DNA from: a virus
Length of the DNA: 34,556 nucleotides
Virus record (IMG/VR): IMGVR_UViG_3300045790_002272
Coordinates: 1-34,556 of that record
Reading direction: 5' to 3' (one strand)
This document shows, one piece after another, positions 1 to 34,556 of this stretch (positions are counted from its first letter, which is position 1; each line of letters opens with the position of its first letter). The notes beneath the pieces are model-generated. The model was given only the letters and a program-made list of their open reading frames with translations. It did not search any database and had not been told where the DNA came from. Made by a program: the position numbers and the translations under genes.

Positions 1-127
1 CTTGGCACCTCGCAGCCCCCGAGGTTTCTAAAAGCCGCTTTGCTTGGTCGCGTATTTTTAAAAATTGCTTTTGGCCTTCTTCTGTAAAAATGGCTGCCTT
101 TTCATCTTCATAGTTGTACATAAATCA
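1..127. repeat. Terminal redundancy: bases 1-127 are identical to 34430-34556, consistent with the overlap of a circular contig
   Basis: Direct comparison of the first and last 127 nt shows an exact match. Content is the 5' part of the 85-aa gene annotated at 34293-34550. Confidence 0.9.
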
Positions 128-3601: not shown

Positions 3602-4237
3602 TTATATCCACGTTTTTAATGATTGTACAACAACGCCGCATAACCTGGCATCAGCTTGCATTTCCATGATGGGGTAACGTGGATTGATGGGCTTTAGATA
3701 GCGTTTTCCGCCATCTATCACTAGTTGTTTGCAGGTTGCTTCGGTGTTGCCGTTTTGGATAACGATAACAATGCTGTTGTGTTCTGCGATGCGAAGCGGG
3801 TCTACGATAACAATTTCATTGTCTTTTATATCAGGTTCCATTGAATCGCCTTGTATGCGCAGTGCAAAGGCGTTTTCGCTGGTTGTGGCGGTGCTTAAAA
3901 CCCAATCTTGCTCATCTTTTGGGTCGTAGTTGTCGCCAATGTCTTTCCAGTTGCCTGCGGCGACACTTGAGATAAGGGGGACGGGTTTAGAATGCACTTG
4001 GTAGGTGTTTGGGGCTTCTTTAACAGCATGGGGCGGTTTGCTGGTTCCTTCTGAGAGCCAAGCTGGGTCAACGTCTAAAACATCACAGGCTTTTATAAAA
4101 TGTGCTCTGGGGATGCCTCCGCGAACTTTCCATAGGTTTACGTTTTGTGGTTCGGTGCTCATTTTTCTAGCAAATTCTGCTTGGCTGATGCCTTTTTGCT
4201 TAAGTGCTAGGTTTAGTCTTTCTCTAAATTTTTCCAT
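3602..4237 (-). CDS. CI/LexA-like repressor (HTH_XRE plus S24 peptidase)
   Basis: GISQAEFARKM HTH, AAG cleavage-site-like motif, GDSM serine and CKQL lysine motifs. Start trimmed to ATG 4237 (MEKFRERL); no SD upstream. Confidence 0.85.
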   Translation of the reverse strand: MEKFRERLNLALKQKGISQAEFARKMSTEPQNVNLWKVRGGIPRAHFIKACDVLDVDPAWLSEGTSKPPHAVKEAPNTYQVHSKPVPLISSVAAGNWKDIGDNYDPKDEQDWVLSTATTSENAFALRIQGDSMEPDIKDNEIVIVDPLRIAEHNSIVIVIQNGNTEATCKQLVIDGGKRYLKPINPRYPIMEMQADARLCGVVVQSLKTWI

Positions 4238-4251
4238 ATACAAAAAGTATA
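4237..4251. promoter_or_regulatory. Operator-like palindrome TATAC-N5-GTATA abutting the cI start codon
   Basis: TATACAAAAAGTATA. The same half-sites recur at 4297-4311 and 2934-2948. Confidence 0.5.
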
Positions 4252-9258: not shown

Positions 9259-9368
9259 CACCCGCATAACCGGCGCAGCTTTTAGCGCCCGGTTCATGCG
9301 CTGGTTAGAAAATTAAGTAAAAGAAACCATTTTAATTCCAACCTTTTTTAATTTTTTTAAATTAATGC

Positions 9369-9398
9369 TTGACGGTTAAGTCCGCACTTTGATACTAT
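9369..9398 (+). promoter_or_regulatory. Late promoter (PR'-like)
   Basis: TTGACG, 18-nt spacer, extended -10 TGaTACTAT, in an AT-rich gene-free region. Confidence 0.6.
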
Positions 9399-9427
9399 TT
9401 TTCCCCATAGTACGGATTATTACGCAA

Positions 9428-9453
9428 AGCTCCTTTTGAAGGGGCTTTTTTTA
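9428..9453 (+). terminator. Late-leader terminator 1
   Basis: AGCTCCTT-ttg-AAGGGGCT followed by TTTTTTT. Confidence 0.65.
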
Positions 9454-9504
9454 TGCCTATAATTCTTTGTAAGGCGTTGTTTTAATCCGTCTTTTTCTCC
9501 TCCT

Positions 9505-9528
9505 AGTCGCTTTTTGCGGCTTTTTTTA
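9505..9528 (+). terminator. Late-leader terminator 2
   Basis: AGTCGC-ttttt-GCGGCT followed by TTTTTTT. Confidence 0.55.
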
Positions 9529-9529
9529 T

Positions 9530-9559
9530 GCCCGTTGTTTTCAGCGGGCTTTTTTTTTG
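9530..9559 (+). terminator. Late-leader terminator 3
   Basis: GCCCG-10 nt-CGGGC followed by T9. Confidence 0.6.
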
Positions 9560-9567
9560 GGTGTTTT

Positions 9568-10206
9568 ATGGGTCAATCGTCTTGTCAGTTTAATTGTTTG
9601 GCGGGTGATTGTGCTTGCTCTGATGTGTGCTTGCGTTCTACTGGTGGCAAGGATTATTTCTTATTGCATGGGTTTAATGTTAAGGATGGCGGGGCTTCTA
9701 CGATGGGGCGCTTGTTGCCGTTGTTGCCTAATGCTCGCATCTGGCCTTATGGCTGGCTGGGGTTGATGGGTGTTAGGTTTTTTAATGGGCGTATTGCTGG
9801 CATGTTAGCGGCTTCGTTAACTGAGGGCTGTGTTGTTATTGCGCACAGTAATGCGGCGGCTATTGTTCAGCGTGCGTTACAGTTGGATGGTTGCCCACAG
9901 GTTGAGCGGCTGGTGTTGATTAGGCCAGCGCTGGATTCAGATGCTACGTTTGGCGATAAGGTTGATAGGGTGGATGTGTTCCATCATGCGGATGATATGC
10001 CTGTGTCTGTGAGCAGGTTTATTCCCTGCCATGAGTGGGGCGATATGGGCGCAGTGGGGTATGAAGGTGATGAGCTGCATGTGGTGAATCATGATTCTGC
10101 GGTGTTGTTTGGTGAGTATGCGGGGCATCATTCGGCGTTTGCGAATGAGTCGTTTGGCGCGTTTGCTAAGTATTTGGTGAAGCTGTTGGGGCTGGATGAT
10201 GCTTGA
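9568..10206 (+). CDS. Alpha/beta-hydrolase-fold protein (start trimmed to MGQSS)
   Basis: LLHGF..., nucleophile-elbow-like IAHSNAA, later D and H residues. Cys-rich N-terminus CQFNCLAGDCACSDVC. First ORF after the late leader. Confidence 0.55.
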   Translation: MGQSSCQFNCLAGDCACSDVCLRSTGGKDYFLLHGFNVKDGGASTMGRLLPLLPNARIWPYGWLGLMGVRFFNGRIAGMLAASLTEGCVVIAHSNAAAIVQRALQLDGCPQVERLVLIRPALDSDATFGDKVDRVDVFHHADDMPVSVSRFIPCHEWGDMGAVGYEGDELHVVNHDSAVLFGEYAGHHSAFANESFGAFAKYLVKLLGLDDA

Positions 10207-10504
10207 GCGTGACCCGACTACGTATTCATTGCTAACGTATTTTTGGGTTCTTGGCATCAGTATTTGGGGCGGCTTTGTTGGGTATTTGCGTAAGGTACGT
10301 GAGGGGCATACGCCACGGTTTAGTATTACTGAGTTGATTGGTGAGGTATGCACGAGTGCGTTTAGTGGCGTGCTTACGTTTTATTTGTGTGAGCTGGCAA
10401 AGTTCGACCCGCTATTGACTGCTGCTTTTGTTGGTATTGCAGGGCACATGGGAAGCCGTGCGATTTATATCATTGAGAAGTGTTTGCGTAATAAGTTTGG
10501 GTGA
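10196..10504 (+). CDS. LydA-like holin (holin superfamily III)
   Basis: Pattern GGFVGYLRK...ELIGEVCTSAFSGVL...AAFVGIAGHMGSRAI parallels P1 LydA as I recall it. Overlaps the upstream stop. Confidence 0.55.
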   Translation: MMLERDPTTYSLLTYFWVLGISIWGGFVGYLRKVREGHTPRFSITELIGEVCTSAFSGVLTFYLCELAKFDPLLTAAFVGIAGHMGSRAIYIIEKCLRNKFG

Positions 10505-10812
10505 GCATGTCTTCTTCATCTAATGTTATTTACGGCGGCAGATGGCGCAAGGCAAGGCTGGCTTATCTTGCTAAGCACCCGCTATGTCGGCGGCATCAAG
10601 AAAGAGGTGAGATTGTTGCTGCTACTGTTGTTGATCATATTGTTCCGCATAAGGGTGATATGAAGTTGTTCTGGGATAGTAAGAATAATTGGCAGTCATT
10701 GTGTAAGCATTGCCACGATAGCTGGAAGCAAAGGCTTGAACGTAGTGGAAAAGAGCTAGGTTGTGACGTAAAAGGCGCGCCAATTGACCCAAATCATCAC
10801 TGGAATAGGTAG
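10501..10812 (+). CDS. HNH endonuclease (terminase-associated)
   Basis: VVDHIVPHKGD...NNWQSLCKHCHDSWK. Sits immediately upstream of terS/terL as in HK97-like cos phages. Start is GTG 10501 or ATG 10507. Confidence 0.85.
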   Translation: MSMSSSSNVIYGGRWRKARLAYLAKHPLCRRHQERGEIVAATVVDHIVPHKGDMKLFWDSKNNWQSLCKHCHDSWKQRLERSGKELGCDVKGAPIDPNHHWNR

Positions 10813-22845: not shown

Positions 22846-22892
22846 CCCGCTTATGCGGGTTTTTTTATGCCTGCTTCATGCAGGTTTTTTTA
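22846..22892 (+). terminator. Two tandem intrinsic terminators upstream of the major tail gene
   Basis: CCCGC-ttat-GCGGG plus T7, then CCTGC-ttcat-GCAGG plus T7. Each is followed by ATGCCTG. Confidence 0.7.
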
Positions 22893-22926
22893 TGCCTGTT
22901 TTTAGGCAAAACAACGGAGAAATATA

Positions 22927-28931: not shown

Positions 28932-29111
28932 TTTGAATAGATATTTTGATACTCGAAATATTTATCAACATAAAGTGAAGATTGCTATATAATCCCCGAC
29001 ACACTTTTTGCCCCACTTTGCATAATACAATGCAATATGAGGCAACGAAGATTGTGCCGAAACGAGTAAAAACAACAACTTAAGCATTGTATAGTGTTGA
29101 CTTAAAACGCT

Positions 29112-29142
29112 TAAAAGAGTTCGAGTCTCTCCTTTCGCACCA
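29112..29142 (+). other. attP core candidate: 3' fragment of a tRNA (T-arm, acceptor, CCA)
   Basis: AAGAG-TTCGAGT-CTCTC-CTTTCGC-A-CCA ends at 29142, 42 nt from the int stop. Resembles tRNA-Leu 3' ends (..GTTCGAGTC..CCTTCGGCACCA). No matching 5' half upstream. Confidence 0.65.
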
Positions 29143-29183
29143 TCTATTTAGTTATAAATCAATAGGTTATGTTTTTATATAAT

Positions 29184-30371
29184 CTATTTGACACCGTTTA
29201 GACCCTTTTTCTCTTGGAATGGGGTAGATTCGCGCATTATTTGTGATTGTTTTGCTTTGTCGGATTTTTCTATCCATCGTGCATAGCTTCTGAAGAATTC
29301 TTTTAATGAATTGCCCATTTGATCTGCTAGATAGCCTGGTGAGCAGCCTTGTGTGAGGTAATAGCTGGCGTAGCTGTGGCGCATGTTGTACATGGGGCGG
29401 TGGCGTAGTTTTAGGTGCGTGAGTACGCGTTTCCATGCCAGTTGCAGGGGTTCTATGTTGATGAGGGGTTTTTGATTGGCTTGGGTGAATACCCATTCTT
29501 TTTTGAAGCCGCTTATTTCGCGCATGGTGTTTAGTGCGTGTTCTGTGCGGCTGTTTAAGTCGATGATTCTGCTTTCGCCTGTTTTTGTGCCTTGTTCGAT
29601 GCCGTTGCGGGTTCGTTTGCGGCAGATGCGTGCTTCTTGGTTGCGGATGGATATTTCGTTCCAGAGTAGTGCGGTGGGCTCGCTGGGTGATCGTACGCCG
29701 CTGTAAAAGCAAAATTCTATGTATGCTGCGTGTTCTTTGCTTTCGCGCGCGTAGAAGGCGTCTATTATTGCGTTGGCTTCTACGTTGTCGAACGGGTCTG
29801 GTAGGGGTGTTGGCCGTGTTTTGTTGGTGATTTGTTCGCAGGGGTTTTGGTGTTTTAGTATGGCGCCGTCTTTTACCGCTTGGTTGAATGTGCCGCGCAA
29901 GCAGGTTAGCCAGTCGTTATACGTGCTAACGCTGGGGGTTTTGTTGTATTCTTGCTGAAATTCATCTATTACGCTGGCGAGTGTGTCTGATATTAGGCTG
30001 TAGCTGATGCTGGCTATTTGTCGATCGCTTAAGTAGGGCATCCATATCCGGTTGAGGATGCCTTTCCATTTGTAGCTGGTGCGCTCTGTCCAGCCGTTTT
30101 GTGGGTTGTTGACCCATGATTGTGCATAGTGATGAAATGTGCCTGCGCTGCGGCTGGTGGCGCGTGGGTCGTTCGGGAAGTAATCGCTCCACCTGAATGT
30201 GCCGTATTTGCATTTTAGGCGTATTTGCTCGCGTAGTTCGGCGGCTTTTTGGACGTTGGCGGGTGTGGCGGTCCATCCATCGAGTGTGACATAGCTGTAT
30301 TTTTTATCGCCTGGTGGTTTAAATTTTATTTGTATTTGACCGCCGCGAATTCGTACGCCTTTTGTTGCCAT
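29184..30371 (-). CDS. int: Tyrosine integrase (lambda-type, with an arm-binding N-domain)
   Basis: N-terminus GVRIRGGQIQIKF (arm-binding type). Catalytic YSGVRSPSE (R), NMRHSYASY (H-x-x-R region), FFRSYARW (Y). About 100 aa separate box I and box II, so there is no IntI-type insertion. Confidence 0.9.
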   Translation of the reverse strand: MATKGVRIRGGQIQIKFKPPGDKKYSYVTLDGWTATPANVQKAAELREQIRLKCKYGTFRWSDYFPNDPRATSRSAGTFHHYAQSWVNNPQNGWTERTSYKWKGILNRIWMPYLSDRQIASISYSLISDTLASVIDEFQQEYNKTPSVSTYNDWLTCLRGTFNQAVKDGAILKHQNPCEQITNKTRPTPLPDPFDNVEANAIIDAFYARESKEHAAYIEFCFYSGVRSPSEPTALLWNEISIRNQEARICRKRTRNGIEQGTKTGESRIIDLNSRTEHALNTMREISGFKKEWVFTQANQKPLINIEPLQLAWKRVLTHLKLRHRPMYNMRHSYASYYLTQGCSPGYLADQMGNSLKEFFRSYARWIEKSDKAKQSQIMRESTPFQEKKGLNGVK

Positions 30372-30383
30372 GTTTTTCCTTTT

Positions 30384-30671
30384 TTACATTGCTGATACGC
30401 GTGGGAATGCTTTGCGCGTCCATTCCTGTACGCGACTCCACCCGATTCTTGATTTCCATAGTTTGCCGTCTATATAGCAGTCGTAACAATCGATTCTATC
30501 TGTTTTGCGCAATTCCATGCGGTATTCTTTGCGACCAAAGTCGTGATCTATGATGATGATTTCACGACGTAGGTCGGGCAGTTTAGCTGGATAGTCTGGC
30601 TGTGGGCTTTCTAAGCGTGTTCGTTCACGGGCTTTTAACGCTTGTTGTGCTCGTTTGGTTGTTCTGTACAT
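30384..30671 (-). CDS. Hypothetical basic protein upstream of int
   Basis: 95 aa, 12 nt from the int start. RBS AGGTAGGA. No family recognised. Confidence 0.5.
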   Translation of the reverse strand: MYRTTKRAQQALKARERTRLESPQPDYPAKLPDLRREIIIIDHDFGRKEYRMELRKTDRIDCYDCYIDGKLWKSRIGWSRVQEWTRKAFPRVSAM

Positions 30672-30706
30672 TTTTTCCTACCTTGCACGGTTAGGTTAAT
30701 GCGGTG

Positions 30707-31048
30707 TTATGCAGCATTCGAGAAGTTGGTAATCTCAGAGATTCCAACACGTTCTTGGTATCCGCTAGATTGAGTAAAATCTTTTGTTAGCCACACATCA
30801 CCCATGCGGCTGGCTCCAGTGACTCGGTAGCGCTCGCCTTTATAATCACAATAGAGTTGGTACTGAGTAATAATATTGGAGAACTTACACTTCAATGTTT
30901 CCGGCATTCTCTTCATATTCAAAAACCAGCTTGCGTACACGTCTGTGTCGGGATGGTCAATGAATTCGTCAACATGCTCCATAACAAGCAGGTCAACTCG
31001 ACCGCTTACCGCGTCGTTTGTTTCAAATTCTGTGGTTCCGTTTATCAT
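30707..31048 (-). CDS. Hypothetical protein (113 aa)
   Basis: RBS GGAGA. TAA stop is the complement of TTA in GTTATGC (30706-30712). Confidence 0.55.
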   Translation of the reverse strand: MINGTTEFETNDAVSGRVDLLVMEHVDEFIDHPDTDVYASWFLNMKRMPETLKCKFSNIITQYQLYCDYKGERYRVTGASRMGDVWLTKDFTQSSGYQERVGISEITNFSNAA

Positions 31049-31107
31049 TTTCGTGTCTCCAAGTTTGTGCCACTCAATCGCGGCAAGTTACCTTCATCGT
31101 TATGTGT

Positions 31108-31356
31108 CTAAATCATATCGTCGATTCGTTTTTTTAATCCGTTAATATTGCGAATATCATCAAGCCTTCTATGGCCATGGAAATAATCATCAATTAGATT
31201 CATATCTACCCACCGACTTTCCTCTAAGTCAAAAAACTGCTTTTCGCAATTAAGATACACTCCTTCCATTTCATCGCCATAGTTGTACATGCAATAAGTG
31301 ACTGCCATATTCGGTGCATCATCCACTATCTGCGTATCAGTTTTGTAGCCCTTCAT
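31108..31356 (-). CDS. Hypothetical protein (82 aa; start trimmed to MKGYKTD)
   Basis: Strong RBS GGGAGGA 4 nt upstream of ATG 31356. Confidence 0.5.
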   Translation of the reverse strand: MKGYKTDTQIVDDAPNMAVTYCMYNYGDEMEGVYLNCEKQFFDLEESRWVDMNLIDDYFHGHRRLDDIRNINGLKKRIDDMI

Positions 31357-31371
31357 AAATCCTCCCGTAAC

Positions 31372-31496
31372 ACATAACAACAGCTTCATTGCGACCCTGC
31401 GGGTCGTGGCTTTGTTCTGTATTTTCGTTTGCGTCTGTCATCGTCTCAATCTCCTAAACCTACTTCCCCGCAGGGCGCTATAAGCAGGGGTTATAC
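31372..31496 (+). repeat. attC-like site (125 nt)
   Basis: ACATAAC-AACA-GCTT[C]ATTGCG[A]CCCTGCGGG...63 nt...CCCGCAGGG-CGCTAT-AAGC-AGGG-GTTATAC. About 19 bp of pairing, with two unpaired bases 6 nt apart on the 5' arm. Confidence 0.65.
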
Positions 31497-31769
31497 GGAT
31501 AGTCCGTCTCGATCAGCCAGCGCTGTCTCGCATGAATTTAGTAGCGTTGATGTGTGAACTAAGTTTCTTTCTGCCAATCCTAGCTGTAGCTCAAGCTCCT
31601 TAATTCTATTCAAGCTTCGCTCAGCAAGATCAACGCAGGAAACGGTAATGAACGACTCGTACCCTGATTCAGTTTCATACAGAACATCAATCTCTGAGTT
31701 ACCCAAGTCGTCAGGAGAGTAAGCGGCTAATGTTTCTAGTTGATATTTTATGTGTTCGTTTTCATTCAT
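31491..31769 (-). CDS. Hypothetical acidic protein (92 aa; start trimmed to MNENEH)
   Basis: RBS GGAG upstream of ATG 31769. The longer form would run into the attC-like site. Stop lies in GTTATAC. Confidence 0.55.
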   Translation of the reverse strand: MNENEHIKYQLETLAAYSPDDLGNSEIDVLYETESGYESFITVSCVDLAERSLNRIKELELQLGLAERNLVHTSTLLNSCETALADRDGLSV

Positions 31770-31787
31770 AGTTTTTACTCCGTTTTC

Positions 31788-31849
31788 GTATAACAAGTCT
31801 TTCAAAAAGAGCCGGAACAGCACCGGCCTGTTTAACTAGGGCGTTAGCG
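31788..31849 (+). repeat. attC-like site (62 nt, type 1)
   Basis: GTATAAC-AAGTC-TTT[C]AAAAAG[A]GCCGG-aacagca-CCGGCCTGTTTAAC-TAGGGC-GTTAGCG. Confidence 0.7.
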
Positions 31850-32005
31850 AGCCTGGCGGCGCTTGTTCAGCTTCGCAACATAGGCCCGTATCTGCTTAAA
31901 ATCGTCAGGGTGGGCATAAAGGCTTCGAATCTCTTTAAGCCCCTCTGCTGCCCTGCGCTCCTTTAATTCTGCCTGCCGCTCCGCAACGGTTTTGGCAGCA
32001 CTCAT
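31844..32005 (-). CDS. Small basic protein (53 aa), ERQAxLxERRAAxG family; not in the ORF track
   Basis: Hand translation gives MSAAKTVAERQAELKERRAAEGLKEIRSLYAHPDDFKQIRAYVAKLNKRRQAR. ATGA overlap with the upstream ORF. Paralogue of 33693-33836. Confidence 0.55.
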   Translation of the reverse strand: MSAAKTVAERQAELKERRAAEGLKEIRSLYAHPDDFKQIRAYVAKLNKRRQAR

Positions 32006-32187
32006 ATCCGTTCCGCCTTTGTCGCTGGAACAGACTTGAGGTCTCCTTTAGGCCAGTTGCACTTAGATGACTGAGGGGAGCAAAGCAGTATCACGCGCCC
32101 ACTTGCTCCAAATTCGATATCCTCAATCTTCCAGTCTGCACCGTTGAATTTAACTATTGCGCCCTTTTCAATTTCTTCCAGTTTCAT
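32002..32187 (-). CDS. Hypothetical protein (61 aa), first gene of a two-gene unit
   Basis: RBS GGTGA. Preceded by its own promoter. Translationally coupled to the 53-aa ORF. Confidence 0.5.
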   Translation of the reverse strand: MKLEEIEKGAIVKFNGADWKIEDIEFGASGRVILLCSPQSSKCNWPKGDLKSVPATKAERI

Positions 32188-32213
32188 ATCTTCACCTTTA
32201 GGTTAGTCGTAAC

Positions 32214-32244
32214 ATAATAATAGCTGTTAGTCGTAACGTGTCAA
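32214..32244 (-). promoter_or_regulatory. Cassette-internal sigma70-like promoter flanked by 12-bp direct repeats
   Basis: Minus strand: TTGACA, 17-19 nt spacer, ATTATT/TATTAT. GTTACGACTAAC occurs twice (32226-32237 and 32202-32213), bracketing the -10. Confidence 0.55.
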
Positions 32245-32251
32245 GTGTTTT

Positions 32252-32321
32252 CGCTAACACCCCGCAGCATCCGACCCTCAAAGCTTGCAGCTTTTCGGTC
32301 GGCTGTGCTCCAAGGTTATAT
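32252..32321 (+). repeat. attC-like site (70 nt)
   Basis: CGCTAAC-ACCCC-GCAGCATCCGACC-ctc-AAAGCT-tgc-AGCTTT-tc-GGTCGGCTGTGC-TCCAAG-GTTATAT. Spacers are 5 and 6 nt. Extra bases on the 5' arm. Confidence 0.55.
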
Positions 32322-32537
32322 GTACGCCTTTACAAAAAGTGGTGCTCTTAAATATGTCTTTGACGCGTCATCAAAAACCATATTATTCGGATTTAGCTCT
32401 CTGTAATTTTTAAAATCTCTCGTAGCAGTTGCAGGGCTAATTCCAAAGAAATCTATAATAAATTCACGTTTTATTTGGCCGTATTTATCTAGCAAAAAGT
32501 CAATCAGCCTGAGTCTTTGTTCAATTGCGTAGTTCAT
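32316..32537 (-). CDS. Small wHTH protein (73 aa; DeoR/HTH_11-like)
   Basis: RLRLIDFLLDKYGQIKREFIIDFFGISPATATRDFKNYRE. Stop lies in GTTATAT. Confidence 0.55.
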   Translation of the reverse strand: MNYAIEQRLRLIDFLLDKYGQIKREFIIDFFGISPATATRDFKNYRELNPNNMVFDDASKTYLRAPLFVKAYI

Positions 32538-32560
32538 AATTTACCTTTTTCACGGTTTTC

Positions 32561-32622
32561 ATATAACAATTCTTTCAATCAGAGCCGGAAAAGCACCGGC
32601 CTGTTTAACTAAAGCGTTATGT
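32561..32622 (+). repeat. attC-like site (62 nt, type 1)
   Basis: ATATAAC-AATTC-TTT[C]AATCAG[A]GCCGG-aaaagca-CCGGCCTGTTTAAC-TAAAGC-GTTATGT. Confidence 0.7.
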
Positions 32623-32952
32623 GTCTTCATTTCTTGATTTCATTAAGACTCTAATTTCTTGGGCTATTATTTGACGCGCCCTGGTCGCGCTTACACCTAG
32701 AACTTCGCCAGCTTGTGCGTAAGTCTTTCCGTCTAATTTATGTAGTGTTAGGATGATTCCTCGGAGTCGCTTATTCTGATTTTGTAGCTTTTGATAGCTC
32801 TCGTAGGTCACGTTGGCTTCTTTTTTATCGCTTCTGTTGCTTTTTTTGAGATCAGCTTCTTTTTTTCTAGAGGCCTTGATTTCCTCCGTTAGGCTCCTTT
32901 CTTTATTTCTCACTCTTTCTCGTTCTTCAATTAATACGCTTAAATCGCTCAT
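32617..32952 (-). CDS. Coiled-coil protein with a C-terminal sigma70-region-4-like HTH (111 aa)
   Basis: KTYAQAGEVLGVSATRARQIIAQEIRVL. ATG lies in GTTATG (complement of the TAAC box). Stop lies in GTTATGT. Confidence 0.55.
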   Translation of the reverse strand: MSDLSVLIEERERVRNKERSLTEEIKASRKKEADLKKSNRSDKKEANVTYESYQKLQNQNKRLRGIILTLHKLDGKTYAQAGEVLGVSATRARQIIAQEIRVLMKSRNEDT

Positions 32953-33051
32953 AACAAGTATCTCCAGTTGACAAATAACCGCATCGGCATTTGTCGTTAA
33001 ATTTAAAGTTTTCAGTAGCGGTTATTTGCTACTGAGAATTTGGCGTTATGC
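32949..33051 (+). repeat. attC-like site (103 nt, type 2)
   Basis: TCATAAC-AAGTA-TCTC[C]AGT-tga-CAAATAACCGC...GCGGTTATTTG-ct-ACTGAGA-ATTTGGC-GTTATGC. The complement of TCTCC is the GGAGA RBS of ORF 32617-32952. Confidence 0.65.
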
Positions 33052-33261
33052 TTCGGGCAGTTTGTAGTTTCCATCATTTCGCGGCCACAAGAAAATAGCA
33101 TCCTTCGGAGGAATCCACCCTCTAGCCTTTGACCCTACAGGGTGAGCTATACAGTCTGATCGATTAACACCGTAAAGTTTTGGCAGTTGCCAAGCGCTTA
33201 TATAGTGCCTATCACCATCTTTGGCTACTACCCCACCTCCGCTTAATACATAAATAGGCAT
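33046..33261 (-). CDS. Hypothetical protein (71 aa)
   Basis: ATG lies in GTTATG, RBS GGAGA lies inside the type-2 site, stop lies in GTTATGC. Confidence 0.55.
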   Translation of the reverse strand: MPIYVLSGGGVVAKDGDRHYISAWQLPKLYGVNRSDCIAHPVGSKARGWIPPKDAIFLWPRNDGNYKLPEA

Positions 33262-33359
33262 AACAAGTATCTCCAGTTGACAAATAACCGTTCCGGCTTT
33301 GTCATTAAATTTAAAGTTTTCAGTAGCGGTTATTTGCTACTGAGAATCGGGCGTTAGGC
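33258..33359 (+). repeat. attC-like site (102 nt, type 2)
   Basis: Near-identical to 32949-33051, with differences in the central loop and the right-hand spacer. Ends GTTAGGC. Confidence 0.65.
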
Positions 33360-33696
33360 CGCTATGTAAACGCGGTGTTGTCCGGCAACTTTCATATCTT
33401 TTGTAAGCTCCTTTATTTCACCAAGCTCAACCAGCCTGTCTACGCAAGCCAGCATTGCCCACGAATCACCAGTGCAGCCAGCAATAATCTCTTGGCACCT
33501 CGCAGCCCCCGAGGTTTCTAAAAGCCGCTTTGCTTGGTCGCGTATTTTTAAAAATTGCTTTTGGCCTTCTTCTGTAAAAATGGCTGCCTTTTCATCTTCA
33601 TAGTTGTACATAAATCAATCCGTAGTTGGGCGCTGCCTAACAACGCCATTAAAAATCGGACTCCGCTACCGCTACGCCGTTTATGGCAAGGGTTAT
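33351..33696. repeat. 346-bp direct repeat, copy A (ORF plus attC-like site)
   Basis: Identical to 34290-34556 continued at 128-206, except one base (33618 a versus 128 c). Confidence 0.9.
33354..33611 (-). CDS. Hypothetical protein (85 aa), copy A
   Basis: Protein identical to 34293-34550. Stop lies in GTTAGGC. Confidence 0.6.
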   Translation of the reverse strand: MYNYEDEKAAIFTEEGQKQFLKIRDQAKRLLETSGAARCQEIIAGCTGDSWAMLACVDRLVELGEIKELTKDMKVAGQHRVYIAA

Positions 33697-33698
33697 GT
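33635..33698 (+). repeat. attC-like site f2 (64 nt)
   Basis: Same as 145-208 but ends GTTATGT. Confidence 0.6.
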
Positions 33699-33836
33699 TG
33701 CCTTTCGCAATTTTCTTACTAATTCATCAACTTTTACTTTCTCAGCATTGGTTAAGAAAAACTCCCGTCTTTTTTGGCCTAAAGCAGCTCTACGTTCTCG
33801 CAGAGCTGCTTGGCGTTCTTTATTTGATTTAGGCAT
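33693..33836 (-). CDS. Small basic protein (47 aa), ERQAxLxERRAAxG family; not in the ORF track
   Basis: Hand translation gives MPKSNKERQAALRERRAALGQKRREFFLTNAEKVKVDELVRKLRKAT. ATG lies 2 nt after the stop of 33839-34144. Stop lies in GTTATGT. Confidence 0.5.
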   Translation of the reverse strand: MPKSNKERQAALRERRAALGQKRREFFLTNAEKVKVDELVRKLRKAT

Positions 33837-33838
33837 TG

Positions 33839-34144
33839 TTATCCGCCAAAAGGCTCTGATCCGTTATTGCTACCAAAATCTTGTCCCCAAATTTCAATAT
33901 TCCAATCCTGTATCGCTTTTTGACAGATGGGTTCGTAGTAGCTTTTTTCTCCTGATTTAACAATAATATCAAGAGCTTTTATAGTCGCTTCCATTTCACT
34001 ATCAGATGTTTCTCCGTTAAATCCTTCCCCCATTATATCTATAGCATCTATACCAGAATCTATCCCATCACATAATGTTTCTATGTCATTCATATTGAAG
34101 TTTTCTTCTAATCCATCTACTACATGTTTAAATAAAGTTGTCAT
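33839..34144 (-). CDS. Strongly acidic hypothetical protein (101 aa)
   Basis: About 21 D/E versus 5 K and 0 R by my count. RBS GGAG. Preceded by its own promoter. Confidence 0.55.
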   Translation of the reverse strand: MTTLFKHVVDGLEENFNMNDIETLCDGIDSGIDAIDIMGEGFNGETSDSEMEATIKALDIIVKSGEKSYYEPICQKAIQDWNIEIWGQDFGSNNGSEPFGG

Positions 34145-34173
34145 TTCCTACTCCTTTTCGTTAATGTAGGTAT

Positions 34174-34202
34174 ATTATTGCATTGTTACCGGTAACAGTC
34201 AA
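34174..34202 (-). promoter_or_regulatory. Cassette-internal sigma70-like promoter with a palindromic operator
   Basis: Minus strand: TTGACT, 17-nt spacer, AATAAT. The perfect palindrome GTTACCGGTAAC (34185-34196) fills the spacer. Confidence 0.6.
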
Positions 34203-34236
34203 GCGATTAATGCAAATAAAATAATTTAGGACGGCA

Positions 34237-34298
34237 ACATAACAAGTCATTCAATCAGAGCCGGTAAAGCACCGGCCTGTTTAACTAAAGCGTTAGGC
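34237..34298 (+). repeat. attC-like site (62 nt, type 1)
   Basis: ACATAAC-AAGTC-ATT[C]AATCAG[A]GCCGG-taaagca-CCGGCCTGTTTAAC-TAAAGC-GTTAGGC. Confidence 0.7.
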
Positions 34299-34556
34299 CG
34301 CTATGTAAACGCGGTGTTGTCCGGCAACTTTCATATCTTTTGTAAGCTCCTTTATTTCACCAAGCTCAACCAGCCTGTCTACGCAAGCCAGCATTGCCCA
34401 CGAATCACCAGTGCAGCCAGCAATAATCTCTTGGCACCTCGCAGCCCCCGAGGTTTCTAAAAGCCGCTTTGCTTGGTCGCGTATTTTTAAAAATTGCTTT
34501 TGGCCTTCTTCTGTAAAAATGGCTGCCTTTTCATCTTCATAGTTGTACATAAATCA
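34290..34556. repeat. 346-bp direct repeat, copy B (continues at 128-206 across the circular junction)
   Basis: Exact match to 33351-33617. The remainder matches 33618-33696 with one mismatch. Confidence 0.9.
34293..34550 (-). CDS. Hypothetical protein (85 aa), copy B
   Basis: Identical to 33354-33611. Confidence 0.6.
   Translation of the reverse strand: MYNYEDEKAAIFTEEGQKQFLKIRDQAKRLLETSGAARCQEIIAGCTGDSWAMLACVDRLVELGEIKELTKDMKVAGQHRVYIAA

What the first reader, a model, noticed from the sequence alone, without database searches (positions are those of the whole stretch)
33693..34202. Promoter-bearing two-gene cassette: a strongly acidic 101-aa protein plus a 47-aa basic ERQAALRERRAALG protein
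This unit has its own promoter: TTGACT, 17-nt spacer, AATAAT, with the perfect palindrome GTTACCGGTAAC in the spacer. It then encodes a 101-aa protein with net charge about -16 by my count. A 47-aa protein with net charge about +9 starts 2 nt after that stop. The layout (own promoter with operator, two tightly coupled small genes, small DNA-binding-looking second gene) is what toxin-antitoxin or effector-regulator cassettes look like in chromosomal integrons. A very acidic small early phage protein could also be a DNA mimic or anti-restriction factor. The function is unknown.
Basis: partly seen in the sequence, partly recalled or inferred. Interest (0 to 1): 0.7.

Follow-up and report, generated by a model that had tools for sequence, protein, structure and literature searches.

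The report
Self-repressed mobile phage cargo cassette
A mobile two-gene unit in a marine temperate phage has a strong promoter with a built-in palindromic operator that drives an acidic protein of unknown role and a 47-residue repressor-like protein, and because the same repressor-operator pair accompanies about two dozen unrelated small genes in other phages, it could serve as a marker for finding such genes, as anti-CRISPR-associated regulators do.

Summary
A 101-aa protein (net charge -16) is followed 2 nt later by a 47-aa protein (+9).

The 47-aa protein belongs to an uncharacterised family, distantly related to plasmid repression protein F of RSF1010. It is always the last gene of a short operon. 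In all 25 modules with enough upstream sequence, the promoter is TTGAC followed by a 12-mer operator.

Regulator subtype and operator centre covary without exception:
- KRREFF-type regulators go with CCGG.
- EVRGIY-type regulators go with CGCG.

The cargo in front of the regulator is hypervariable: about 24 unrelated ORFs. The identical 101-aa gene pairs with both regulator subtypes, and its homologues survive after the regulator has decayed. This argues against a toxin-antitoxin pair. It fits an acr-aca-like, self-repressed accessory operon. The biochemical role of the 101-aa protein remains unknown, and it has no sequence or fold match.

The unit is also an integron-type cassette (33693-34292) in an 11-cassette array without an integron integrase. 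Related phages differ by whole cassettes at G|TTA junctions. A second module of the same family lies at 31844-32244.

The parts
33693..34292 (-). Cassette X. This is the whole mobile unit: an attC-like site, the promoter/operator platform, the 101-aa gene and the 47-aa gene.
   Evidence: This stretch, give or take 2-5 nt, is the only part shared with relative L002 at this point (window 33688-34295, 99.7%). It is also the only part shared with the unrelated contig L015 (window 33692-34297, 91%).
34237..34292 (+). attC-like recombination site of cassette X. The R''-like box ACATAAC is at 34237-34243 (extended form GGCAACATAAC, 34233-34243). It is followed by an imperfect hairpin that ends ...AAAGCG, just before the G|TTA junction at 34292|34293.
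   Evidence: The R'' box is the exact reverse complement of the cassette's other end for 11 nt. The reconstituted site folds with an 11-12-bp terminal stem, at -17.6 kcal/mol (top strand) and -19.1 kcal/mol (bottom strand). L015 carries a compensatory change, GTTATATTGCC...GGCAATATAAC.
33692..33702 (+). Left cassette end, G|TTATGTTGCC. It is the R'-like half-site. Its TTA is the reverse-complemented stop codon of the 47-aa gene.
   Evidence: The 349-bp repeat and the similarity to L002 both end here.
34203..34232 (-). A/T-rich tract upstream of the -35 hexamer. It resembles an UP element and is part of the conserved expression platform.
   Evidence: It is conserved together with the promoter in L015, L016 and L021 even though the cargo differs. 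Its function is inferred.
34197..34202 (-). -35 hexamer, TTGACT.
   Evidence: TTGAC is conserved in all 25 modules.
34184..34197 (.). Operator: the 14-bp perfect palindrome TGTTACCGGTAACA (core GTTACCGGTAAC, 34185-34196). It starts directly after the -35 hexamer.
   Evidence: It is the only exact copy in the window. It is conserved in position in all modules and covaries with regulator subtype. Binding is inferred, not shown.
34174..34182 (-). Extended -10 element: TG, then c, then AATAAT.
34151..34156 (-). Shine-Dalgarno sequence AAGGAG, 6 nt before the ATG of the 101-aa gene.
33839..34144 (-). Cargo gene. It encodes a 101-aa acidic protein (net charge -16, pI 4.1) predicted to be four helices.
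   Evidence: AlphaFold2 gives pLDDT 92.3 and pTM 0.86. The family is rare: 4 clusters at 90% identity and 24 representatives among 1.84 billion proteins. It has no Pfam, PHROG, PADLOC, PDB or BFVD match.
33693..33836 (-). Regulator gene. It encodes a 47-aa basic protein (+9) with a predicted helix-strand-helix layout. It is a distant relative of plasmid repression protein F and is the presumed autorepressor.
   Evidence: NCBIfam NF041430 gives E = 2.7e-6 and 27 bits, against a cut-off of 100. 19 of 24 family members match it. phrog_536, 'transcriptional regulator', gives 1e-4. AlphaFold2 gives pLDDT 88.8, with helix 5-19, strand 22-28 and helix 30-46.
33354..33692 (-). Cassette c6: the 85-aa ORF (33611->33354) with its own attC-like site. 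This is copy A of the duplicated cassette and lies transcriptionally downstream of X.
   Evidence: It lies within the 349-bp repeat 33351-33699. The boundaries fall at G|TTAGGC and G|TTATGT.
34293..34556 (-). Cassette c6', copy B of the same cassette. It continues across the contig junction to position 202.
   Evidence: 34290-34556 equals 33351-33617 at 100%, and 1-209 equals 33491-33699 at 99%. The same c6-X-c6' order lies inside contigs from two other samples, L001 and L003.
31844..32244 (-). Second module of the same family, in cassette c2. The promoter is TTGACA, 16 nt, TATTAT (32244-32217). The 12-mer GTTACGACTAAC occurs twice (32237-32226 and 32213-32202). A 61-aa gene (32187->32002) overlaps the start of a 53-aa regulator gene (32005->31844).
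   Evidence: The promoter scores 11 of 12. The 12-mer occurs twice against 0.07 expected. The regulator matches the family profile at E = 2e-12.
30707..34556 (+). Array of 11 attC-like cassettes, named by attC polarity. It continues over the contig junction to position 600. Boundaries are c0a 30707, c0b 31100, c1 31491, c2 31844, c3 32316, c4 32617, c5 33046, c6 33354, X 33693, c6' 34293 and c9 203-600. All ORFs are on the minus strand.
   Evidence: Each cassette's R'' box is the reverse complement of its own left end: 29 of 32 positions, against 1.4 of 4 for non-self pairs. Only 1 of 40,320 permutations does as well. All 10 reconstituted sites fold with 7-11-bp terminal stems. Differences from L002 and L020 fall at whole-cassette boundaries.

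Best explanation
The region is a self-contained, self-repressed accessory operon of a temperate phage. It is also packaged as an integron-type gene cassette.

**Proposed mechanism**
1. Host sigma-70 RNA polymerase starts at a strong promoter: an A/T-rich upstream tract, TTGACT, a 17-nt spacer, and TG-n-AATAAT.
2. It makes one mRNA for the 101-aa acidic cargo protein and the 47-aa basic protein. The two are translationally coupled, with a 2-nt gap here and overlapping stop and start codons in relatives.
3. The 47-aa protein is a helix-strand-helix relative of plasmid repression protein F. It presumably binds as a dimer to the palindrome TGTTAC-CG-GTAACA, which fills the spacer directly after the -35 hexamer, and so blocks the polymerase.
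4. The result is a burst of expression on DNA entry, or a low homeostatic level in the lysogen.
5. The 101-aa protein is the payload and does not need the regulator as a protein partner. Its most likely role is to bind and inhibit a host or competitor protein, that is, anti-defence or host takeover. This is how the small variable genes in acr-aca operons work.

**Two routes of mobility**
- The whole cassette moves by site-specific recombination at G|TTA in attC-like sites.
- The cargo alone is replaced between the conserved promoter platform and the conserved 5' end of the regulator gene.

**What is shown:** the anatomy, the conservation, the regulator-operator covariation, the cargo swapping and the cassette boundaries.

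**What is inferred:** DNA binding, repression, the payload's activity and the recombinase.
For: **Architecture.** All 25 modules with at least 300 nt upstream carry TTGAC followed by a 12-mer, then 1-2 small ORFs, then the regulator gene.

**Specificity covariation.**
- 9 regulators with ..G[QL]KR[RK]E[FY].. have GTTACCGGTAAC, and 2 more have that site with one mismatch.
- 13 regulators with ..E[VLMI]R[GHS][IL].. have GTTACGCGTAAC.
- The window's second regulator (KEIRSLY) has GTTACGACTAAC, twice.
- There are no exceptions.
- The differing residues lie in the predicted strand, residues 22-28.

**Association.** Of 57 exact matches to the promoter-operator pattern in IMG/VR, 15 have a family member on the same strand within about 700 nt downstream. 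A later search with a broader profile added one more.

**Regulator identity.** The matches are NF041430, plasmid repression protein F, and phrog_536, transcriptional regulator.

**Cargo.** There are about 24 unrelated families of 42-168 aa, with net charge from -28 to +12 and no known domains.

**Independence of cargo and regulator.**
- The 101-aa gene is 99% identical in DNA over window 33808-34146 only, in an unrelated phage (L005-L008). There it has a subtype-B regulator and a terminator.
- The same slot in L025/L026 holds a 72-aa cargo.
- L016 and L021 share only the platform and the regulator gene with the window.
- L013 keeps the cargo with a frameshifted regulator relic.

**Cassette.**

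**Precedent.** Aca proteins, including the ribbon-helix-helix Aca14, repress acr promoters through inverted repeats (bioRxiv 10.64898/2026.07.27.740549).
Against: - No experiment or complex model shows that the 47-aa protein binds the palindrome or represses.
- The predicted layout is helix-strand-helix, not the canonical strand-helix-helix of ribbon-helix-helix proteins. No Pfam RHH or HTH model matches, and there is no fold match in the PDB.
- The match to protein F is far below the curated cut-off: 27 bits against 100.
- None of the cargo proteins matches a known anti-defence protein, and no defence system is known to be the target.
- Many modules are close relatives. For example, L005, L025 and L098 share one platform. 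The covariation therefore rests on fewer independent events than 25.
- Promoter strength is judged only from the consensus.
- The recombinase for the attC-like sites is unknown. The window's only tyrosine recombinase is an arm-type phage integrase.
Confidence: 0.7

Rival explanations
1. The regulatory logic is the same, but the payload benefits the lysogen. The cassette would be a moron expressed from the prophage, and its 101-aa product would protect the host, for example by superinfection exclusion or a small defence or abortive-infection factor, rather than help the phage overcome defence.
For: - The phage is temperate: it has an integrase and an S24 repressor.
- An own, autoregulated promoter is what a gene needs in order to be expressed while the early-left operon is silent.
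- In L005-L008 and L015 the module is inserted against the direction of its neighbours and ends in a terminator, the classic moron layout.
Against: - The cargo proteins are very small, soluble and often very acidic. They are hypervariable and lack transmembrane segments or enzyme domains.
- No PADLOC model matches.
- That profile is more typical of inhibitors than of defence effectors.
- None of this is decisive.
Confidence: 0.2
2. The pair is a type II toxin-antitoxin pair, either toxin-first with a DNA-binding antitoxin or the reverse. Such pairs stabilise cassette arrays in chromosomal integrons.
For: - It is a two-gene, tightly coupled, self-promoted unit inside an attC-type array.
- The DNA-binding second gene is small and autoregulatory.
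- This layout is known for toxin-antitoxin cassettes (established knowledge).
Against: - One and the same 101-aa protein occurs with two regulators that are only 39% identical and share only residues 1-20.
- One regulator occurs with unrelated cargo of opposite charge.
- Homologues of the 101-aa gene persist next to a frameshifted regulator relic, or with none.
- No toxin or antitoxin family matches any member.
- A 47-aa protein has little room for both an operator-binding and a toxin-binding domain.
Confidence: 0.04
3. The 47-aa protein is not an autorepressor. It could be an activator, a translational or RNA-binding regulator, or a regulator of other phage genes, with the palindrome serving another factor or the recombination machinery.
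For: - Binding is not shown.
- Some Aca proteins also act on RNA (bioRxiv 10.64898/2026.07.27.740549).
- The 5' UTR...ATACC(C/T)ACATTAACGAAA..., is also conserved among subtype-A modules.
Against: - The palindrome sits between -35 and -10 with a normal 17-nt spacer, the standard position for steric repression.
- Its centre covaries with the regulator's strand residues.
- Only one exact site exists in the genome, at the regulator's own promoter.
- The nearest named relative is a plasmid autorepressor (its autorepressor function is from my own knowledge of Maeser et al. 1990, not checked here).
Confidence: 0.05
4. The arrangement c6-X-c6' is an assembly artefact. Cassette X flanked by two copies of the 85-aa cassette would then come from a population in which X, or a 939-bp circle of c6 plus X, is only sometimes present. 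This rival concerns the context only, not the operon.
For: - The exact repeat is 267 nt, longer than the 127-nt overlap at the contig ends.
- The contig starts and ends inside it.
- Relative L002 has X without any c6 copy.
Against: - The same order lies inside contigs from two other samples, L001 (34.6 kb) and L003.
- The two copies differ by one base just outside the 267-nt stretch.
- Duplicated cassettes are common in cassette arrays (established knowledge).
Confidence: 0.1

Closest known systems
acr-aca operons: anti-CRISPR genes followed by an anti-CRISPR-associated autorepressor (Aca1-13 helix-turn-helix; Aca14 ribbon-helix-helix)
   Same: - Small, hypervariable and often acidic cargo genes sit directly upstream of a conserved small regulator gene.
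- A strong promoter carries an inverted-repeat operator.
- The regulator gene and promoter act as fixed anchors between which cargo is exchanged.
- The units occur in accessory slots of phages (precedent).
   Different: - The regulator is 47 aa with a predicted helix-strand-helix layout, and no HTH or RHH model matches.
- The operator is G+C-centred and lies in the spacer next to the -35. The Aca14 repeat is AT-rich and lies over the -10.
- No cargo is a known Acr.
- No inhibition of any defence system is shown.
Plasmid repression protein F of RSF1010/IncQ (NCBIfam NF041430, UrfF)
   Same: - It is the only named sequence relative. The window protein matches at E = 2.7e-6, and 19 of 24 family members match with a best E of 5e-8.
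- From my own knowledge (Maeser et al. 1990, Nucleic Acids Res 18:6215, not checked here), F is a 68-aa autorepressor of promoter P4 and follows a small ORF, E, of unknown function.
   Different: - The score is far below the equivalog cut-off, 27 bits against 100.
- The protein is shorter, aligning to profile positions 16-58 of 68.
- The context is phage rather than a plasmid replication operon.
- I could not retrieve the RSF1010 record or its operator sequence.
Integron gene cassettes, and clusters of attC sites lacking an integrase (CALINs), including those reported in phages (Qi et al. 2023, PMC9892861)
   Same: - Cassettes are bounded at G|TT.
- Each cassette's R''-like box is complementary to its own other end.
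- The imperfect hairpin sites are 41-116 nt long, and the bottom strand is the more stable in 8 of 10.
- Relatives differ by whole-cassette gain, loss and duplication.
- The same site types accompany different genes in another phage, L128.
- Own-promoter cassettes are known from chromosomal integrons.
   Different: - There is no integron integrase. The adjacent recombinase is an arm-type phage integrase.
- All ORFs lie on the opposite strand to the attC polarity and are read towards the integrase.
- The core boxes match GTTRRRY/RYYYAAC only in part, mostly as GTTAT../..ATAAC.
- Extrahelical bases were not assessed.
- No attC model such as IntegronFinder or HattCI was available.
Type II toxin-antitoxin cassettes of sedentary chromosomal integrons
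   Same: Both are two-gene, self-promoted, autoregulated units inside a cassette array.
   Different: Partner specificity is absent, the cargo survives loss of the regulator, and there are no toxin or antitoxin domains.
Phage morons, and the PeSL cassettes of T4-type phages (Arbiol et al. 2010, Genome Biol Evol 2:140; my own knowledge, not checked here)
   Same: - They are autonomous transcription units inserted between phage genes.
- In L005-L008 the module has its own promoter and an intrinsic terminator and is inserted against its neighbours.
- Conserved intergenic stem-loop motifs flank shuffled small ORFs.
   Different: - Morons have no shared regulator-operator pair.
- PeSL shuffling is by homology between promoter/stem-loop repeats. 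Here the junctions share only G|TTA(TGT).
Acidic DNA-mimic anti-restriction proteins (T7 Ocr, ArdA)
   Same: - The protein is small, helical and very acidic (-16).
- It sits in the early region of a phage.
- There is a motif-level resemblance to the Ocr N-terminus, F-x-H...E-N...D-D-I.
   Different: - None of the resemblances is significant: hhalign probability 1.8% with P = 0.028, PDB profile E = 1.9, Foldseek E = 4.9 with TM 0.26.
- There is no Pfam Ocr match.

Membership tests
acr-aca type operon (Aca-like regulator) | A conserved small regulator gene lies directly downstream of variable small cargo genes in one operon. | tested here: met
   25 modules carry about 24 unrelated cargo families, with stop and start codons overlapping or 2 nt apart.
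acr-aca type operon (Aca-like regulator) | An inverted-repeat operator lies within the operon's own promoter. | tested here: met
   The 12-14-bp palindrome directly follows the -35 in all modules with enough upstream sequence.
acr-aca type operon (Aca-like regulator) | The regulator binds the repeat and represses the promoter. | not testable with these tools
   This is only inferred, from the operator's position and from regulator-operator covariation. It needs an EMSA and a reporter assay.
acr-aca type operon (Aca-like regulator) | The cargo inhibits CRISPR-Cas or another defence system. | not testable with these tools
   No cargo matches a known family. No anti-defence library was at hand.
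acr-aca type operon (Aca-like regulator) | The regulator is homologous to a named Aca family (Aca1-14). | not tested
   No HTH or RHH Pfam model matches. Aca sequences, including Aca14 (HDR1349883.1), were not available for comparison.
Plasmid repression protein F (NF041430) | The score reaches the curated equivalog cut-off of 100 bits. | tested here: not met
   The score is 27.4 bits at E = 2.7e-6. 19 of 24 members match, none near the cut-off. The protein is a distant relative, not a member.
Ribbon-helix-helix superfamily | An N-terminal strand is followed by two helices, or an RHH profile matches. | tested here: not met
   The AlphaFold2 monomer is helix 5-19, strand 22-28, helix 30-46. There is no Pfam RHH hit and no PDB fold or sequence hit. 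A ribbon formed by the strand in a dimer remains possible.
Type II toxin-antitoxin system | The two proteins are cognate partners that co-vary and are kept together. | tested here: not met
   The same cargo occurs with two regulator subtypes, and the same regulator with unrelated cargo. The cargo also occurs with a decayed regulator or with none.
Type II toxin-antitoxin system | A recognisable toxin or antitoxin domain is present. | tested here: not met
   No Pfam, NCBIfam or PADLOC toxin or antitoxin match was found.
Integron gene cassette / attC site | There are inverse core sites with conserved ..AAC and GTT.., and the two are complementary within a cassette. | tested here: met
   10 of 10 cassettes have ..TAAC and GTTA... 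Complementarity to the cassette's own end is 29 of 32 positions, matched by only 1 of 40,320 permutations. The full RYYYAAC/GTTRRRY pattern is only partly matched.
Integron gene cassette / attC site | Recombination crossover occurs at G|TT, seen as whole-cassette differences between arrays. | tested here: met
   Blocks shared by the window and L002 end at 30711, 32314-32622, 33688-34295 and 198. L015 shares only X. L020 similarity ends at 30710.
Integron gene cassette / attC site | The single strand folds with extrahelical bases, and the bottom strand is the more recombinogenic. | tested here: inconclusive
   All sites fold as imperfect hairpins with internal loops and bulges. The minus strand is the more stable in 8 of 10, with one tie and one exception. 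Extrahelical bases were not assigned, and there was no attC model or assay.
Integron gene cassette / attC site | An integron integrase (IntI) lies next to the array. | tested here: not met
   The adjacent 395-aa recombinase has Arm-DNA-bind_2 and Phage_integrase domains. It gives only weak XerC-like NCBIfam hits and none to the integron-integrase model. The array therefore resembles a CALIN.
Integron gene cassette / attC site | The ORF is co-oriented with the attC site, with the site downstream of the ORF. | tested here: not met
   In all 11 cassettes the ORF is on the opposite strand and the site lies at its 5' side. The duplicate copies of c6, and the copies of X and c3 in other arrays, keep the 5'-side site and not the 3'-side one.
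Ocr-like DNA mimic | Sequence or fold similarity to Ocr is significant. | tested here: not met
   hhalign gives probability 1.8%, the PDB profile gives E = 1.9, and Foldseek gives E = 4.9 with TM 0.26.

The most novel reading that the evidence does not exclude
The 47-aa proteins would be a new Aca-like family of minimal repressors with a two-state operator code: CCGG or CGCG at the centre of GTTAC-NN-GTAAC. They would mark more than 20 unknown anti-defence proteins in marine and environmental phages. In one phage lineage these self-regulated units would be carried as true recombination cassettes in a phage-borne, integrase-less 'anti-defence integron'. In that array the ORFs are read against attC polarity from the phage early promoter, and it turns over cassette by cassette between near-identical genomes.
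Probability: 0.3. Interest if true: 0.8.

Novelty: new variant of a known kind. Interest (0 to 1): 0.62.

Why it matters
**Regulator as a marker.** If the 47-aa protein is the autorepressor it appears to be, it gives a compact and easily searched handle: a 47-aa gene plus TTGAC-GTTACSSGTAAC. That handle could be used for guilt-by-association discovery of small phage accessory proteins. About two dozen unrelated ones are already collected here, several of them extremely acidic. Aca genes opened up anti-CRISPR discovery in the same way.

**Regulator-operator pairs as tools.** The two subtypes, which differ only at the operator centre, form a natural orthogonal pair. They could be useful for studying minimal DNA recognition, or as small synthetic switches.

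**Cassette turnover.** The context shows cassette-by-cassette turnover at attC-like sites between near-identical temperate phage genomes, with no integron integrase on board. This bears on how phages acquire and shuffle accessory genes. It extends the report of attC clusters in phages (PMC9892861).

Tried and rejected
**Similarity searches of the window DNA and the two proteins**
- Megablast of 29000-34556 against GenBank phages gave no match.
- tblastn of the 47-aa protein against phages and plasmids gave no match.
- A subtype-B regulator against plasmids gave two weak unannotated hits in Acidovorax.

**Function of the 101-aa protein**
- Pfam, PHROGs, NCBIfam and PADLOC gave nothing.
- PDB sequence profiles gave nothing below E = 0.18.
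- Foldseek of a confident model against the PDB and BFVD gave nothing below E = 1.6.
- The Ocr lead appeared in three searches but was never significant, so I rejected it as evidence.
- A scan of IMG/VR with the 101-aa family found no relative.

**Collection scans**
- The genome collection could not be scanned with the wide alignment. With the regulator alignment it gave one weak hit, so host range stays unknown.
- The IMG/VR scan for the D3-type attC string returned about what I estimate for chance, which is my own rough figure, except for L128.

**Other checks that found nothing**
- Foldseek of the 47-aa model found nothing.
- I could not retrieve the RSF1010 record or the operator of protein F.
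- The operator strings occur in the literature only as cloning sites in primers.
- Rfam and tRNA scans of the array were empty.

**Readings considered and rejected**
- A minus-strand attC polarity, with the ORF followed by its own site. The two c6 copies, and X and c3 in other arrays, do not share the 3'-side site.
- Homologous recombination between the D3 repeats as the cause of the window/L002 differences. The junctions share only G|TTA(TGT).
- The palindrome or the promoter as significant on their own.


Full report
**1. The observation**

- The 101-aa ORF runs 34144->33839 and the 47-aa ORF runs 33836->33693.
- Their net charges are -16 and +9.
- The first stop codon is followed by CA and then the second ATG.
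- The promoter is TTGACT (34202-34197), a 17-nt spacer, and AATAAT (34179-34174), with a TG extended -10.
- The palindrome GTTACCGGTAAC (34196-34185) starts directly after the -35 hexamer. It is part of a 14-bp perfect palindrome.
- AAGGAG lies 6 nt before the first ATG.

Taken alone these features are not beyond chance. Promoter-like sites occur at the shuffle rate, 10 against 9.6. Perfect 12-bp palindromes are common, 13 against 8.8. The case rests on comparison with other sequences.

**2. The setting**

The window is a whole, circularly closed contig. Positions 1-127 repeat at 34430-34556. It is a temperate phage.
- It encodes an arm-type tyrosine integrase at 29184-30371 and an S24 repressor at 3602-4243.
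- It also has a long run of plus-strand ORFs that I take to be the structural genes, including 571-aa and 422-aa ORFs. I did not annotate these. In the related contig L013, the stretch homologous to window 9348-10718 is followed by a gene with a terminase small-subunit domain.
- The identical 101-aa protein is on record from a metagenome-assembled genome labelled Cycloclasticus pugetii. The same contig was assembled in 8 samples.

**3. The 47-aa protein is a conserved regulator with its own operator**

*Family identity.*
- It has no Pfam match.
- It matches NCBIfam NF041430, 'plasmid repression protein F', at E = 2.7e-6. The score of 27 bits is far below the 100-bit cut-off.
- 19 of 24 family members match the same model, with a best E of 5e-8.
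- It also matches phrog_536, 'transcriptional regulator'.
- AlphaFold2 with a 24-sequence alignment predicts helix 5-19, an extended segment 22-28, and helix 30-46, at pLDDT 88.8.
- No solved structure resembles it, by sequence or by fold.

*Collected relatives.* I gathered relatives by three routes:
- protein search;
- their genomic contexts;
- a scan of IMG/VR for TTGACNGTTACSSGTAAC and a metagenome scan.

*The shared layout.* In every one of the 25 distinct modules with at least 300 nt of upstream sequence, the layout is the same: TTGAC, a 12-mer, a -10 element, one or two small ORFs, and then the regulator gene. The regulator's start overlaps, or lies 2 nt after, the preceding stop.

*Association.* Of the 57 pattern matches in IMG/VR, 15 have a family member on the same strand within about 700 nt downstream. 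A later search with a broader profile added one more. I estimate that about 30 of the 57 are chance matches, and this figure is rough.

*Covariation of regulator and operator.*
- Nine regulators with ..G(Q/L)KR(R/K)E(F/Y).. go with GTTACCGGTAAC. Two more have that site with one mismatch.
- Thirteen regulators with ..E(V/L/M/I)R(G/H/S)(I/L).. go with GTTACGCGTAAC.
- There are no exceptions.
- The residues that differ are those of the predicted strand.
- Several modules are close relatives, so the number of independent events is smaller than 25.

I take this as good comparative evidence that the protein binds the palindrome. A site filling a 17-nt spacer implies repression. Neither binding nor repression is shown.

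**4. The cargo is variable and does not depend on the regulator**

- The ORFs between operator and regulator fall into about 24 unrelated groups. They are 42-168 aa long, with net charge from -28 to +12. None has a known domain.
- The 101-aa gene itself occurs at 99% DNA identity in a quite different phage (L005-L008), between an 88-aa gene and a Peptidase_M15_3 gene and on the opposite strand to both. The identity covers only window 33808-34146, that is, the ORF plus the first 10 codons of the regulator gene. There the promoter carries the CGCG operator, the regulator is of the other subtype, and an intrinsic terminator follows.
- In L025/L026 the same slot, promoter and regulator carry a 72-aa basic protein instead.
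- L016 and L021 share only the promoter platform (window 34142-34254) and the regulator gene with the window.
- A 61%-identical homologue of the 101-aa protein (L013) is followed by a frameshifted relic of the regulator. A 51% homologue has none.

This pattern argues against a cognate toxin-antitoxin pair. It matches the way anti-CRISPR genes are exchanged in front of aca genes. A ribbon-helix-helix Aca (Aca14) that represses through an inverted repeat in the promoter was recently described (bioRxiv 10.64898/2026.07.27.740549).

**5. The 101-aa protein**

- It belongs to a rare family: 4 clusters among 5.8 billion proteins, and 24 representatives among 1.84 billion.
- Conserved motifs are an N-terminal LF-H and EN-N, and a C-terminal WN..VWG.
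- The model is confident, four helices at pLDDT 92.3. It has no significant match in the PDB or BFVD, in PDB sequences, or in any family library.
- T7 Ocr turned up three times, always below significance.

Its role as an inhibitor of a host or rival protein is therefore an inference from size, charge and genomic company, not a finding.

**6. The unit is an integron-type cassette**

*Structure of the array.* Read on the plus strand, the region from 30707 across the contig junction to 600 consists of 11 units.
- Each unit begins G|TTA. The TTA is the reverse-complemented stop codon of the minus-strand ORF.
- Each unit carries, at the 5' side of its ORF, an imperfect hairpin site that starts ....TAAC.
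- The bases before TAAC are the reverse complement of the unit's own other end. This holds at 29 of 32 positions, against 1.4 of 4 for non-self pairs. Only 1 of 40,320 permutations does as well.
- All ten reconstituted sites fold with a 7-11-bp terminal stem, and the minus strand is the more stable in eight.
- For cassette X (33693-34292) the matching ends are 11 nt long. L015 carries a compensatory change in both ends.

*Whole-cassette differences between relatives.*
- The near-identical relative L002 shares the integrase block up to 30711, c3 (32314-32622, 100%), X (33688-34295) and the sequence from 198 onwards. It lacks c4-c6 and c6' and has other cassettes instead. The junctions share only G|TTA(TGT).
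- L020 diverges at 30710.
- L015 holds X alone.
- L128 shares only the hairpin sites, not the genes.

*The flanking repeat.* The 349-bp repeat on either side of X is exactly one cassette, c6, present twice. The same order lies inside contigs from two other samples, so I think it is real. An assembly effect is not excluded.

*Departures from a canonical integron.* There is no integron integrase, and all ORFs run against the site polarity. This makes it a CALIN-like array of an unusual kind. attC clusters in phages have been reported (PMC9892861).

**7. A second module**

Cassette c2 holds another member of the family.
- Its promoter is TTGACA, 16 nt, TATTAT (32244-32217).
- The 12-mer GTTACGACTAAC occurs once in the spacer and once just after the -10. 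Two copies are found where 0.07 are expected.
- It encodes a 61-aa protein and an overlapping 53-aa regulator, which matches the family profile at E = 2e-12.

Only these two of the eleven cassettes scored as near-consensus minus-strand promoters in the scan.

**8. Verdict**

- The 'effector-regulator cassette' reading is supported, and the toxin-antitoxin reading is not. The DNA-mimic idea remains open.
- The best account is a self-repressed accessory operon of the acr-aca kind, carried on an integron-type cassette.
- The regulator family and its operator code appear to be undescribed.
- I rate it a new variant of a known kind, of moderate to good interest.
- The missing evidence is experimental: binding, repression, and the activity of the cargo.

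Noticed in passing
window 1-127 and 34430-34556: The contig ends overlap by exactly 127 nt. The window is therefore a circularly closed assembly of about 34.43 kb, and the finding lies next to the arbitrary break point.
   Followed up: yes
window 31844-32244 (minus strand): A second self-promoted two-gene module of the same regulator family. It has TTGACA-16-TATTAT, the 12-mer GTTACGACTAAC twice, a 61-aa gene and an overlapping 53-aa regulator gene.
   Followed up: yes
window 30707-34556 and 128-600: An array of 11 attC-like cassettes lies between the integrase side (junction 30706|30707) and a DUF3850 gene (junction 600|601). All ORFs run against the polarity of the sites. There is no integron integrase in the genome.
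   Followed up: partly
window 33351-33699 and 34290-34556 plus 128-209: One whole cassette, carrying the 85-aa ORF of unknown function, is present twice, on either side of the finding. The copies differ by a single base at position 128 versus 33618 within the cassette. Relative L002 has no copy at all.
   Followed up: partly
L005-L008, L025, L026: In an unrelated phage, the slot between an 88-aa gene and a Peptidase_M15_3 gene holds the same promoter and regulator with either the 101-aa gene (99% DNA identity to the window) or an unrelated 72-aa gene. This indicates recent cargo replacement.
   Followed up: yes
L013:1380-1480: A 61% homologue of the 101-aa protein is followed by a frameshifted, truncated relic of the regulator gene (MPLANHQ... 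in one frame, ...KKQAALRKRRAEF... in another). A different promoter-like region lies upstream.
   Followed up: yes
L128:8945-10025: A 39-kb viral contig shares only the attC-like elements with the window (96% and 90-94% identity) and none of the genes. The same site types therefore accompany other cassettes elsewhere.
   Followed up: partly
L034 and L094: In L034 the regulator is fused to a Cys-rich C-terminal extension (CPDCGYW...CSCGC), and its cargo is a 96-aa protein with net charge -18. In L094 the cargo is a 168-aa protein with net charge -28.
   Followed up: no
window 32316-32537 and 32617-32952: Two neighbouring cassettes encode small DNA-binding-looking proteins. One is 73 aa, with a BrxR-like winged-helix hit on record for the identical gene in L001. 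The other is 111 aa, with a coiled-coil N-terminus and a sigma-70 region 4-like helix-turn-helix (E = 2.7e-5).
   Followed up: no
window 9434-9539 and 22848-22903: Two pairs of tandem about 31-nt repeats end in GC(G/A)GG(C/T)TTTTTTTATGCC. They lie at two places in the late region and look like terminators.
   Followed up: no
window 31810-31828 (minus strand) and the other D3-type sites: On the mRNA strand, the central G+C hairpin of some attC-like sites is followed by a T-run and scores as an intrinsic terminator. If these sites insulate cassettes from read-through, that would explain why the two regulator-bearing cassettes carry their own promoters.
   Followed up: no
window 33839-34144 versus T7 Ocr residues 10-40: There is a motif-level resemblance to the Ocr N-terminus: 31 aligned columns at 35% identity. 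It recurs in three different searches but is never significant.
   Followed up: yes
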